From assembly GCF_009914755.1 (NCBI RefSeq), contig NC_060925.1: a DNA stretch of 64,000 nt; one strand, 5' to 3'. This DNA comes from the human T2T-CHM13v2.0 reference genome, Homo sapiens. Position 1 is the stretch's first letter. Each line of letters opens with the position of its first letter. Below are positions 37,601-40,600 of the stretch, in pieces. The notes under the pieces were generated by a model that was not told the DNA's origin, made no database searches, and saw only the letters and a list, made by a program, of their open reading frames with translations. The translations under genes were made by a program, and so were the position numbers.

Positions 37601-40600
37601 CCATCGGAGCTGCCGCCACTCCATCCCGCACGCCCTGGGGCCTGTCCCGGGGGCAGAGGGGCAACGTCCCCAATATGGCCTCCGTCCTGAGAGCGAGCAG
37701 AGAACAGCGCGTGCAGGCAGCCTCCAGAGCCGGCGGCCCCGCGGACGACAACCTCTTCCACGGTTCCTATGCCTATGGCACTGCCCCGGCGTCCGAATCT
37801 ACTCGCACTTTTCCCAGGAATAAGCAATGACTGGCAAGCAGCAGAGGGCGGGGGCAGAGAGAGAGAGACAGAGAGAGAGTCAGAGAGCAAGAGAGATGGT
37901 GGGAGGGAGACACAGAGAGGAGGAGAGGCAGGGAAAGGAGGAAGACAGACAGAAAAAGGAAGAGAATGGTGCAGGAGGCAATGGGAGAGATAGGGCCGGG
38001 GAAAGGAAGGCGAGAAGCACAAGGAGAGACAGAGGACAAGGGAGACGGGGGAGAGATGGACAGACAGTTACCCGGAGACAGGGACACGCGTGAGCCAGCG
38101 AGGGCACACCAGATGGGCACAGAGGGAAATCCAGAGAGACAGGGACGCAAGGACACAGACACAGGCCCAGGGAGGGTCAGAGACAGAGAAGGAAGCCAGG
38201 GGAAGGCCGAAAGGAAAAAGCGAGGGTGAGAAGAGCGGAGAAGGGAAGGAGGAGAGGGAGCAAAAAAGACAGGTGCAAGAAGGAAGGAGAAACAGAGAGC
38301 CAAAGGGCAGAGAGGCCACAGGACGGGGAAAGGGAAGGGAGGAGGGAACAAAAAAACAAGGAGAGAGAGTAGAATGAAAGGAGGAAACACAGAGAGAGGG
38401 AGAGTTGTGCAAAAACAAAACAGAAATGGGTCCGGTTACTGCCATGGTGGGTGCTGCTGGCCTGGTCCTGTCCCTGGGGCCCCTCTCGGCCACCCACAGG
38501 AGGCTGGGTCACTCTGGTGGAGAGGAAGGGAGTGGTTGATAAAACTGGGTTGGGGGAGGTTGGGCCTGCTCCTCGCATGACAGTGTGCTTGGTGACTGCT
38601 GGACAGCAGAGGTCGGGGAATTCCCTCCTGCCACGTGACATAGCCTCACAGCACTGAGCGCAGGGCTTGGCATGCAGTAGACAGTCAATAAAGGATGGAT
38701 GGATGGATGGATCGGTGGGTGGGTGGATGGATGGATGGAGATAGAGGGATGGATAGAGATGGATGGATGGATGGATGGATGGATGGATGGATGGATGGAT
38801 GGGTGGATGGGTGGGTGGATGGATGGATTGATGGGTGGATGGGTGGGTGGATGGGTGGGTGGATGGATGAGTGGGTGGGTGGGTGGATGGGTAGATGGGT
38901 AGGTGGGTGGATGGGTGGGTGGGTGGATAGCTAGATGGGTGGATGGGTGGGTGGATGGATGGATGGGTGGGTGGATGGATGGGTGGCTGGATGGATGGGT
39001 GGGGAGCACAGCAGTGGGTGCAGTGTCCTGGGGTGGCCACTAGGCAGTGGACAGCAGTGAGGCCCACAGCCATAGGCCGTATTCATCCATGTGCCCAGCA
39101 CTCCTGAGTGTGAGCAGCAGAATCCCAGAACCTGGACAACAGTCAGTGATCACACAGGAGGTGCTCCCTCTGGAGATGCTCACACAGAAGCCAGATTCCC
39201 GACACACAATAGGCAGCCACACCACAGAGGCCCTGGCTGCTGCGGACACACAGTAGGAGGTGCTCACAGAGAAAGTACCCACACAACAGCTCACTTCCTG
39301 ACACACAGTAGGTGTTCACTGACATCTAGGGCTTATCACACACGATGTGCTCACATAGCAGTCCATTTTCTGACACACAGTAGGTTCTCACACAGCAGCC
39401 CAGGGCTGCGCACACAGTAGGCGCTCACAGAGTTGATGCCCACACAGCAGCCCAGGACCTGACACACAGTGGGTGCTCACAGGTACTCAGGGCCAGGCCC
39501 ACAGTAGATGCTCACAGAGTGCATGTCCACACAGCAGCCCAGGGCCTGACACACAGTGGGTGCCCACAGCCCGACACACAGTAGGTGCTCCCAGAAACCC
39601 AAGGCTTGACAGTAGGTGCCCACACAGCAGCCCAGTCCCCAGCAAACAGATAGATACTCAATAAGGAATGAGACACAGAGGCTGTCCCAGGGCTGACCTG
39701 CAGGAAGTCACACCTCAATGCATAAAGGGCCAGGAGGAGGGGAGGGCCAAGGAGCTTGGGAAGGGGCTGCAGGCTGCAAGCTGTCAGCACCGCAGTGTCC
39801 TGGCCTGGGCACTTCACCCCCCTCCCATGGAAAGTAGTGGCTAGACCAAATCCAGAGCCTAGGATGGGCATGTGGGCAGCAGGGCAACAGAGAGAGTTGG
39901 AGTCAGGCCTCAGGAGGCAGAGGAGAGCTGAGGGCCCCCCAGGGAGGGGCAGGGGCCTGGGGAGGGGGAGGGCACTCACTATTCCAGCCGCCTTGGCCAG
40001 GTCGGGGTTGTTGGGCGCGAAGCTCCCGCTGTGGCTGGTGGACACGGTGTTGGGCTTCTTGTTGCTCAGCCCCATGGCATCCATGGACTGGCTGCGGCTC
40101 CGGATGACCCGCTGTGAAGGGGGTGGCAGTGGAGGAGGCACAGGATTCCTAAGGGCCGTCCCCTTGGGGAAACCCAGGAGCCCAGGCATCTGGTCTCTCC
40201 CCAGCAATGCCACTCTGGGTAAGCCCTGGAAATCCCTTCCCCTGGGCATGTGGCCAGCAGGGCAACAGAGGGAGGTGGGGCCAGGCCTCAATTTCCCTGT
40301 GCGTCACATGAGAAGCAGGTACATACGGGGCCTAAGGGTAGCTCAGGTATTGGCTCTGCCACCAACTTGCCGGGTGGCCTTGGGGACACCACTTCAGTTC
40401 TCTCACTCTCTGGGACACACAGGCTGCTCTGTGCTGAGTGTCCTCATGTGGCTGCGTAAGGACTGCAGAAGACACTGGGTCATGGCCAAAAGTGTGCACA
40501 GAGAGCCCTCTTGACACCTCAGTTTCATTCCTGTTAGGGCCTCTTAGAGCTCTCCTGCCTTCTTTCTTTTCTTCCCTCCCACCCTCTTTCCTTGTTTTTT

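What the first reader, a model, noticed from the sequence alone, without database searches (positions are those of the whole stretch)
37833..38440. 606-nt AG-exclusion zone with a candidate very distant branch point upstream of the RAP1GAP cassette exon
Seen: on the transcript (minus) strand there is no AG dinucleotide between the cassette acceptor (37831-37832) and 38439-38440; equivalently, no CT on + from 37833 to 38438. The zone is CU-rich (UCUCU/UCUU). At its 5' edge is CAGUAAC (branch A at 38436, 5/7 match to UACUAAC), followed by a U-rich tract (auuucuguuuuguuuuug). Established: long AG-free zones with a branch point and pyrimidine tract at the 5' end mark distant-branch-point, PTBP-regulated exons such as TPM1 exon 3, the ACTN1 SM exon and PTBP1 exon 11, whose branch points lie roughly 170-400 nt upstream. 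Inference: a branch point near -606 would be unusually far. Caveats: closer candidates exist (CUGAC with A at 37880, 38177; UAAC at 38068; CUCAC at 38091, 38227), and pyrimidine richness alone depletes AG.
Basis: partly seen in the sequence, partly recalled or inferred. Interest (0 to 1): 0.8.

Follow-up and report, generated by a model that had tools for sequence, protein, structure and literature searches.

The report
Long AG-free pyrimidine tract, RAP1GAP exon
A 606-base stretch with no AG, made almost entirely of C and U, really does sit in front of an optional RAP1GAP exon, but it was already listed in a 2006 catalogue and which branch point the exon uses is still unknown.

Summary
On the transcript (minus) strand there is no AG from 38438 to 37833 (606 nt). 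This is the longest AG-free gap in the window; the next, 263 nt, is an (ATCC)n microsatellite. The zone coincides with a tract that is 82.5% pyrimidine and 4% A. AG absence goes modestly beyond composition (P about 0.002-0.03, depending on the null).

It is not new. Supplementary file 2 of Gooding et al. 2006 lists this acceptor with AGEZ 608 and predicted branch sites at -606 (4.06 bits), -545, -397, -347 (7.69) and -50 (7.69).

New here:
- The 78-nt cassette is an in-frame, ancient tandem duplicate of the start of the next exon.
- Five unnamed orthologous read-through ORFs keep a stop-free, pyrimidine-type tract of variable length (317-495 nt).
- These five also keep the 5' edge block, which holds the UAAC motif and the U-run. 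The interior of the tract is not conserved.

No lariat data exist for this intron.

My reading is that the tract is a PTBP-type pyrimidine platform kept AG-free by selection. The branch point is most likely CUGAC at -50 (about 0.5). The conserved 5' edge is a live distal candidate (about 0.25).

The parts
37833..38438 (-). AG-free, A-poor CU-rich tract (606 nt; 82.5% pyrimidine; 25 A). Its interior is not conserved in sequence among orthologous ORFs but keeps its pyrimidine character.
38439..38440 (-). First AG upstream of the acceptor (Gooding's position -610); the 5' limit of the zone.
38388..38502 (-). Conserved 5'-edge block. It holds GUAAC (candidate branch A at 38436, -606) and the U-rich run 38427-38410. 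It is single-copy in the genome.
38176..38180 (-). CUGAC, candidate branch A at 38177 (-347); 7.69 bits in Gooding's matrix. It lies in the non-conserved interior.
37879..37883 (-). CUGAC, candidate branch A at 37880 (-50); 4 of 4 match to yUnAy; 7.69 bits.
37833..37878 (-). Proximal pyrimidine tract between the -50 site and the acceptor (Gooding PPT -49..-3). It has three UGC triplets at -13, -10 and -6. The last ~30 nt are conserved.
37831..37832 (-). Acceptor AG of the cassette exon.
37753..37830 (-). 78-nt cassette exon: phase 0, in frame, 26 aa, with a weak donor GAG|GUUGUC. It is a tandem duplicate of the start of exon 36723-36832.
37576..37752 (-). Extension used by the 255-nt long form (85 aa, in frame). 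The first ~90 nt after the short donor are conserved, even in orthologs where the reading frame differs.
36723..36832 (-). Next constitutive exon, the paralogue of the cassette.

Best explanation
The zone is an expanded polypyrimidine tract in the intron upstream of an ancient, weakly defined alternative exon of RAP1GAP.

Inferred function: it is a long single-stranded platform for pyrimidine-binding splicing regulators, PTBP1/PTBP2 above all, which set how often the exon is included.

Inferred reason for the lack of AG: in a stretch that is polypyrimidine tract throughout and dotted with branch-like motifs, any new AG would act as a 3' splice site. It would be used either as the first AG after an upstream branch or as a decoy. 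Selection therefore removes AGs, on top of a composition that already makes them rare.

Inferred branch point: for most splicing events it is the consensus CUGAC at -50, followed by its own pyrimidine tract. The conserved block at the 5' edge is either a second, distal branch/pyrimidine unit or a regulator-binding site.

Shown: the zone itself, its composition and motif content, the moderate excess AG depletion, the exon's frame and duplication, and the conservation pattern.

Not shown: protein binding at this site, and which branch point is used.
For: Motif content:
- CUCUCU occurs 17 times and UCUCU 26 times, against 2.9 +/- 2.0 and 6.8 +/- 3.0 in shuffles.
- CUCUCU runs at 2.81 per 100 nt, against 0.08 in the other RAP1GAP introns of the window.

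Structure: the tract is not predicted to be structured (z = -0.84) and has no complementary purine partner nearby.

Branch-site candidates:
- The -50 site matches yUnAy at 4 of 4 positions and is tied for the highest score in Gooding's matrix (7.69 bits), with predicted PPT -49..-3.
- In Pineda & Bradley, 80% of constitutive U2-type branch points lie between -49 and -20, so -50 sits just outside that range.

The exon looks regulated:
- Its donor GAG|GUUGUC is weak (the strength judgement is mine, against the recalled consensus).
- Sequence after the donor is conserved in 51 of 85 windows.

Gene-level regulation:
- RAP1GAP is listed with skipped-exon and alternative-3'ss events after PTBP2 knock-down in iPSC neurons, and with PTBP2 CLIP signal in brain (supplement 5 of PMC10164156).
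- Rap1gap is named as a PRMT9/SF3B2 and NOVA splicing target in mouse hippocampus (passages of PMC10984984).

Comparative data:
- A pyrimidine-type, stop-free tract of 317-495 nt is kept in 5 of 5 mammal-type read-through ORFs although its interior sequence is not conserved (8 of 178 windows).
- The 26 more divergent ORFs have only about 0-180 nt of A-poor sequence before the exon.
Against: - AG depletion extends 556 nt beyond the -50 site. A purely proximal branch point does not by itself require that.
- The 5'-edge block with UAAC and the U-run is conserved in 23 of 44 windows, about as well as the sequence after the donor and far better than flanking intron. That is what the distal-branch-point architecture predicts.
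- In the three large-AGEZ exons that Gooding et al. tested, high-scoring proximal sites (-51, -217, -81) were dispensable and the distal sites were required.
- The PTBP, NOVA and PRMT9 evidence is at gene level. The affected exon is not named in what I could read, and the window holds at least one other cassette (43017-43211).
- No coordinate matching this exon occurs in the PTBP2 supplements.
- UCUU is under-represented relative to shuffles (6 against 16.5), although it is 3 times the intron background.
Confidence: 0.5

Rival explanations
1. The conserved 5'-edge block is the working branch point (A at 38436 in GUAAC) with its own U-rich polypyrimidine tract. The second catalytic step then takes the first AG downstream, 606 nt away. 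The CU-rich tract between them holds the repressor sites, as in alpha-tropomyosin exon 3 and PTBP1 exon 11.
For: - The block is conserved in 5 of 5 orthologous ORFs that reach it. Two of them (the Val-Thr frame) fix U at -2, A at 0 and C at +1 by their residues; the other three are consistent with this.
- In a tally over nine unnamed ORFs, 23 of 44 windows are conserved at the edge, against 10 of 70 and 37 of 215 in flanking intron and 8 of 178 in the tract interior.
- The distance from block to exon varies (317, 449, 479, 480, 495 and 606 nt), yet the intervening stretch stays stop-free and pyrimidine-type.
- AG depletion reaches exactly to this block.
- In 3 of 3 large-AGEZ exons tested by mutagenesis, the distal site was the one required.
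Against: - The site scores low (4.06 bits, 3 of 4 yUnAy positions), against 7.69 bits for CUGAC at -50 and -347.
- The longest distal sites that Gooding et al. tested by mutagenesis are -351 and -275. The -566, -829 and -1079 sites they mention are predictions only.
- No lariat is recorded for this intron.
- The block's conservation could equally reflect a regulator-binding site.
- The non-human sequences probably carry an AG 3-4 nt after the putative branch A (residues Q or R where human has R or G). So the AG-free state of the motif's immediate flank is specific to the human sequence.
- AG exclusion in the orthologs could not be tested. Four interior Gln codons in three of them could be CAG.
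Confidence: 0.25
2. A by-product with no splicing function beyond an ordinary acceptor. On this view a low-complexity CT-rich stretch grew by slippage in mammals, and AG is absent only because A is rare. This matches the AGEZ-369 case in Gooding et al., where a repeat element explained the zone and the only good candidate branch site was at -17.
For: - Composition alone gives P(no AG) = 0.028, and block shuffles reach 606 nt in about 2% of trials. That is not extreme for one window picked out by eye.
- The interior is not conserved in sequence and its length varies two-fold.
- Short (AG)n-type arrays are present on the plus strand.
- More divergent relatives lack the long tract.
Against: - With neighbour-aware nulls the probability falls to 0.0016-0.015.
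- AG is the only dinucleotide absent, and its exclusion zone is 2.6 times the next longest.
- TRF finds arrays covering only about 70 of the 606 nt.
- The pyrimidine, stop-free character persists across five diverged orthologs despite sequence turnover, and both edges are conserved.
Confidence: 0.15
3. A DNA-level element. The polypurine/polypyrimidine duplex would form H-DNA, an i-motif or a G-quadruplex and slow RNA polymerase, affecting exon choice or chromatin.
For: Strong strand asymmetry over 600 bp. One C3+ x4 motif on the transcript strand and two G4-motif starts on the plus strand.
Against: - The longest uninterrupted pyrimidine run is only 24 nt.
- RefSeq functional elements listed for the window do not include this stretch (hub annotation).
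- The specific loss of AG, rather than of other purine dinucleotides, is not explained.
Confidence: 0.03

Closest known systems
PTBP1 (PTB) exon 11, a distant-branch-point exon (Gooding et al. 2006, PMC1431707, section 7 read in full)
   Same: A long AG exclusion zone (381 nt) upstream of a regulated cassette; several candidate branch sites, including a high-scoring one at -51 with its own pyrimidine tract; a pyrimidine-rich interval.
   Different: There, mutagenesis showed that the -351 site (UACUGAC, 7.52 bits) is required and the -51 site is not. Here nothing has been tested, the distal candidate scores only 4.06 bits, and it lies 1.7 times further away.
Rat alpha-tropomyosin exon 3 (branch point mapped at -175; same paper, section 7)
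   Same: A branch point plus pyrimidine tract at the 5' end of an AG-free interval, with first-AG selection. AGs inserted in the interval are used as acceptors (passage in section 9).
   Different: That branch point was mapped in vitro and has no strong proximal rival. Its interval is about 3.5 times shorter.
Other very long AGEZ entries in the same catalogue: PSD-95 (873 nt) and PTPsigma (1126 nt)
   Same: Neuronal genes; AG-free intervals longer than this one; branch points unverified. Dlg4 exon 18 is a known PTBP1/2 target (passage of PMC3668367).
   Different: I could not confirm that the PSD-95 entry is exon 18. For PTPsigma the mouse AGEZ is only 229 nt.
IDB1079466.8106, AGEZ 369 caused by a repeat element (Gooding et al., section 6 passage)
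   Same: A long AG-free stretch that follows from the sequence's composition, with a good branch site in the conventional place.
   Different: [quoted passage not shown] Here the pyrimidine tract persists (317-495 nt) in five diverged orthologous sequences and its 5' edge is conserved.

Membership tests
Large-AGEZ / distant-branch-point exons (Gooding et al. 2006) | AG exclusion zone of 150 nt or more upstream of the acceptor | tested here: met
   606 nt. Listed as AGEZ 608 in their supplementary file 2.
Large-AGEZ / distant-branch-point exons (Gooding et al. 2006) | Branch-site match with an adjacent pyrimidine tract at the 5' end of the zone | tested here: met
   GUAAC with A at 38436, 3 of 4 yUnAy positions, 4.06 bits; predicted PPT -600..-579. 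The match is weak.
Large-AGEZ / distant-branch-point exons (Gooding et al. 2006) | No good branch site in the conventional position (typical of their clear cases) | tested here: not met
   CUGAC at -50, 7.69 bits, PPT -49..-3. PTB exon 11 also had such a site, and it proved inert.
Large-AGEZ / distant-branch-point exons (Gooding et al. 2006) | Large AGEZ and distal site conserved in orthologs | tested here: inconclusive
   The edge motif and a stop-free pyrimidine-type tract are kept in 5 of 5 orthologous ORFs. AG itself cannot be read from protein, and no orthologous DNA was available.
Large-AGEZ / distant-branch-point exons (Gooding et al. 2006) | Distal branch point shown by mapping or mutagenesis | not testable with these tools
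   No branch point for this intron in Pineda & Bradley file S1. The Taggart 2017 data file was not readable.
PTBP1/PTBP2-repressed cassette exons | Dense CUCUCU/UCUU motifs in pyrimidine context in the upstream intron | tested here: met
   CUCUCU 17 against 2.9 +/- 2.0. UCUU at 0.99 per 100 nt against 0.32 in intron background. The motif definitions are recalled.
PTBP1/PTBP2-repressed cassette exons | PTBP binding at the site and a change in exon inclusion on PTBP depletion | tested here: inconclusive
   Gene-level rows only: SE and A3SS events, brain peaks 5.82, iPSC-neuron peaks 0. No coordinates for this exon.
Long homopurine-homopyrimidine (H-DNA-type) tracts | Long uninterrupted purine/pyrimidine strand asymmetry | tested here: not met
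   The longest pure pyrimidine run is 24 nt; 17.5% of the strand is purine.
Simple tandem repeat | Head-to-tail units detectable over most of the stretch | tested here: not met
   TRF reports only 37856-37896, 37858-37887 and 37915-37942 inside the zone.

The most novel reading that the evidence does not exclude
The conserved 5'-edge block is the true branch point and polypyrimidine unit of this exon in placental mammals. The spliceosome would then find the acceptor across an AG-free interval that has drifted between about 320 and 606 nt in different lineages. That would make this the most distant working branch point shown in a human gene. It would also be a natural experiment showing that first-AG selection has no practical distance limit, provided the interval stays pyrimidine-rich, unstructured and AG-free.
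Probability: 0.2. Interest if true: 0.6.

Novelty: already known. Interest (0 to 1): 0.3.

Why it matters
If the distal site is used, it would extend the verified range of branch-point-to-acceptor distance by more than half. It would also mark about 600 nt of deep intron in which any variant creating an AG could alter RAP1GAP splicing in neurons.

If the proximal site is used, the tract is one more example of a long PTBP-type platform, of interest mainly for how this exon is regulated. The exon adds a second copy of the segment that carries the protein's RRxS-type sites, so its inclusion may change how RAP1GAP is controlled by phosphorylation. That last point is inference.

Tried and rejected
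- (pattern CT over the whole window) gave only a list and no useful null; scripts replaced it.
- Lariat evidence. The Taggart 2017 supplements yielded only 11,280 searchable characters and the main data file could not be read. Pineda & Bradley file S1 has rows for neighbouring RAP1GAP introns but none between hg19 21,930,328 and 21,932,725. File S2 is cut and unsorted. One lariat (5'ss 21930327) probably starts at the cassette's donor, but this rests on a 12-nt offset I inferred, and the mapped branch base is not an A in T2T.
- TDP-43 cryptic exon. RAP1GAP's known cryptic exon is hg38 21598723-21598820, which is window 32632-32729, in another intron. Its splice sites were verified. It is unrelated to this cassette, and Brown 2022 file 2 has no junction at the cassette.
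- Rebuilding orthologous nucleotides from overlapping reading frames. Searches with the other two frames of the human tract found nothing, so conservation of AG exclusion could not be tested.
- Paralogue comparison. Whole-genome searches with the cassette and the next exon found only themselves.
- Structure bringing the distal site closer. No inverted-repeat partner was found and folding gave z = -0.84.
- Rfam: one chance-level match below threshold.
- Literature. 'RAP1GAP' with 'PTBP1', 'exon' and 'alternative splicing' gave 2 papers, neither relevant. 'Rap1gap' with SRRM4/nSR100 gave one paper that holds Rap1gap, which I did not read. 'RAP1GAP' with 'branch point' gave 11 papers, of which 10 were listed. 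Only the PRMT9 paper concerned splicing by its title and abstract, and it was the only one I read.
- I did not rank AGEZ 608 among all 165 catalogue entries.
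Full report
**Observation**

On the transcript (minus) strand the AG at 38440-38439 is followed by 606 nt with no AG, up to the acceptor AG at 37832-37831. This is the longest AG-free gap on either strand of the window. The runner-up, 263 nt at 38932..38666, is an (ATCC)n microsatellite of about 77 units; the third is 135 nt.

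The zone is A 25, C 256, G 81, T 244, which is 82.5% pyrimidine and 4.1% A. A 50-nt profile shows the AG-free zone and the pyrimidine-rich block share the same borders. With only 25 adenines in the zone, the list of candidate adenine branch points is complete and short.

**Chance**

The A-poor composition explains most of the length.
- Mononucleotide shuffles of the zone expect 3.3 AG and give none in 2.8% of trials.
- Shuffling the whole strand in 100- or 200-nt blocks produces an AG-free run of 606 or more in 7 of 300 and 5 of 300 trials.
- Mononucleotide nulls understate AG, because A is followed by G more often than G's frequency suggests. At A's in pyrimidine-rich context elsewhere in this window (acceptor-proximal tracts excluded), P(G|A) is 0.15-0.23. 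That gives 3.8-5.7 expected AG and P(0) = 0.0016-0.015. The strictest threshold rests on only 26 A's.
- AG is the only dinucleotide with zero count. Its exclusion zone from the acceptor is 2.6 times the next longest: AA 235, GG 163, TA 158.

I conclude that AG is depleted somewhat beyond composition. The evidence is moderate, not overwhelming.

**Already in print**

Supplementary file 2 of Gooding et al. 2006 (PMC1431707) holds the 165 exons with AGEZ of 150 nt or more. One entry is IDB1145632.65896, 'RAP1, GTPase activating protein 1'. It gives AGEZ 608, AGs at -628, -625, -610 and -2, and predicted pyrimidine tracts covering most of -600 to -3. Its predicted branch sites are -606 [4.06 bits], -545 [3.71], -397 [4.99], -347 [7.69] and -50 [7.69].

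The gene is not mentioned in the main text. The catalogue also holds longer zones. Among the first 30 of the 165 entries I saw 873 nt (PSD-95) and 1126 nt (PTPsigma).

The paper describes three kinds of large AGEZ:
- clear distal-branch cases;
- by-products of repeats with a normal proximal branch site;
- intermediates that need experiments.

RAP1GAP is an intermediate, because it has candidates at both ends.

**The exon**

The 78-nt cassette (37753-37830) starts in phase 0 and is in frame with no stop. It adds 26 residues. The 255-nt form (37576-37830) is also in frame and adds 85 residues. The short form's donor is GAG|GUUGUC, which I judge weak against the recalled consensus.

The cassette peptide aligns with the start of the next constitutive exon (36723-36832). 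The local score is 72, against a maximum of 39 in 2000 shuffles. The two exons are therefore tandem duplicates. Both carry an RRxS-type motif; the link to protein kinase A sites is recalled, not tested.

Proteins containing the long form are annotated in primates, a whale, cats, pig, cattle, dog, a donkey, bats, a hedgehog, lemurs and two rodents (a gundi and a ground squirrel). These come from 198 hits, of which 120 were listed. Two unnamed, more divergent sequences (P0136, P0150) are spliced products in which the cassette is followed directly by the paralogous exon. The cassette is therefore old.

**Orthologous tracts, seen through an artefact**

The tract has almost no A, so it has almost no stop codons. 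Gene callers have consequently predicted 'proteins' on unnamed contigs that read from the intron straight into the exon.

Five of these ORFs are of the mammal type, sharing the cassette peptide: P0093, P0096, P0103, P0106 and P0114. All five reach the 5' edge of the tract.
- All five contain the translation of the edge block. It appears either in the frame that reads Ser-Asn-Gln-Thr-His-Phe-Cys-Phe or in the frame that reads Ala-Val-Thr-Arg followed by Pro or Ser. These match the two open human frames across CAGUAAC and the U-run.
- The Val-Thr frame fixes U at -2, A at 0 and C at +1 of the putative branch site.
- The distance from that A to the exon is 479, 495, 480, 449 and 317 nt, against 606 in human.
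- The 748 intervening residues contain no Lys or Glu and are dominated by Ser, Leu, Pro, Phe and Cys.

I made a crude conservation tally over nine unnamed ORFs. It counts 9-residue windows with at least 7 identities to any human frame (interpolation failed for part of P0093).

| Region | Conserved windows |
|---|---|
| Upstream flank | 10 of 70 |
| 5' edge (38509-38400) | 23 of 44 |
| Tract interior | 8 of 178 |
| Last 39 nt of the tract | 14 of 18 |
| Short exon | 55 of 61 |
| First 93 nt after the donor | 51 of 85 |
| 37659-37576 | 23 of 62 |
| Intron below 37575 | 37 of 215 |

The tract thus keeps its character and both of its edges while its interior turns over and its length changes.

In the non-human sequences the residue after the motif is Gln or Arg, where human has Arg or Gly. 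This fits CAG in place of the human CGG, that is, an AG 3-4 nt after the putative branch A (inference).

Whether AG is excluded from the orthologous interiors cannot be read from protein. Four interior Gln codons in three sequences could be CAG.

Twenty-six more divergent ORFs share a related cassette peptide. They show only about 0-180 nt of A-poor sequence before the exon; 5 of the 26 are lower bounds. Four further hits that begin inside or after the exon were left out of that count. The long tract therefore looks like an expansion within the mammal-type lineage. The unnamed records carry no organism names, so this rests on similarity only.

**Branch point**

For -50:
- a perfect CUGAC;
- the joint top score in Gooding's matrix;
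- an unbroken pyrimidine tract to the acceptor;
- a position just outside the range (-49 to -20) that holds 80% of constitutive branch points.

For a distal site:
- AG depletion runs 556 nt past -50;
- the 5' edge is conserved;
- in the three large-AGEZ exons tested by mutagenesis, the distal site was needed and the good-looking proximal sites at -51, -217 and -81 were not.

Against -606 specifically:
- its low score;
- no distal site tested by mutagenesis in that paper lies beyond -351;
- a conserved U/G-rich block could equally be a regulator-binding site.

The -347 CUGAC lies in the non-conserved interior.

Direct data are missing. Pineda & Bradley's lariat file has branch points for neighbouring RAP1GAP introns but none in this one. 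The same paper reports that 13.9% of branch points upstream of switch-like cassette exons lie 100 nt or more away.

**Regulators**

CUCUCU occurs 17 times, against 2.9 +/- 2.0 in shuffles and at 35 times the intron background. UGU is also enriched, at 29 against 13. The tract is predicted to be unstructured.

Gene-level hints that RAP1GAP carries regulated exons:
- skipped-exon and alternative-3'ss events after PTBP2 knock-down, with PTBP2 CLIP signal in brain;
- Rap1gap named as a PRMT9/SF3B2 target shared with NOVA in mouse hippocampus, in a study where affected exons tend to have weaker and more distal predicted branch sites.

None of these sources names the exon in what I could read.

The well-known TDP-43 cryptic exon of RAP1GAP lies in a different intron, at window 32632-32729.

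**Verdict**

It has been catalogued since 2006 together with the same candidate sites.

My best reading (0.5) is a PTBP-type pyrimidine platform kept AG-free by selection, with the main branch at -50. The distal-branch reading keeps a real chance (0.25) because of the conserved edge block and the precedent of PTB exon 11. A functionless by-product is less likely (0.15). One lariat RT-PCR or one minigene series would settle the question.

Noticed in passing
window 37753-37830 and 36723-36832 (minus strand): The cassette exon is a tandem duplicate of the first part of the next constitutive exon (local protein score 72 against at most 39 in 2000 shuffles). Both carry an RRxS-type motif. Including the cassette would give the protein two copies of this segment.
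   Followed up: partly
window 37660-37752 (minus strand): The ~90 nt after the short form's donor are conserved in orthologous ORFs (51 of 85 windows). This holds even in P0106, P0114, P0105 and P0119, where they are read in a different frame from human. The conservation is therefore at the nucleotide level, which suggests a splicing control element overlapping the long-form coding extension.
   Followed up: partly
window 37834-37845 (minus strand): Three UGC triplets lie at -13, -10 and -6 from the exon, in the conserved last 30 nt of the intron. From memory this resembles the UGC motifs near acceptors of SRRM4/nSR100-dependent neural exons. The one paper in the search that holds both Rap1gap and SRRM4 was not read.
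   Followed up: no
window 38693-39002: An (ATCC)n microsatellite on the transcript strand (GGAT on plus, 77.5 copies, 82% matches) lies about 250 nt upstream of the zone. It gives the second-longest AG-free gap in the window (263 nt). A 12-nt difference between hg19 and T2T spacing of two RAP1GAP donors may lie here (inferred).
   Followed up: partly
window 32632-32729 (minus strand): This is the position of the published TDP-43-dependent cryptic exon of RAP1GAP (hg38 21598723-21598820, Brown et al. 2022 supplement). Here it has a CAG acceptor and a GUGAGU donor, and GU/UG-rich sequence immediately downstream.
   Followed up: yes
proteins P0093, P0096, P0103, P0106, P0114, P0143 and others: Public protein collections hold 'proteins' that are really intron read-through ORFs of the RAP1GAP pyrimidine tract. 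The A-poor sequence has no stop codons. These are annotation artefacts, but they are useful as a window on orthologous introns.
   Followed up: yes
window 38325-38348 (minus strand): The longest pure pyrimidine run (24 nt) is C-rich and includes the zone's only four-run C3+ motif, a possible PCBP/hnRNP K-type site or i-motif former.
   Followed up: no
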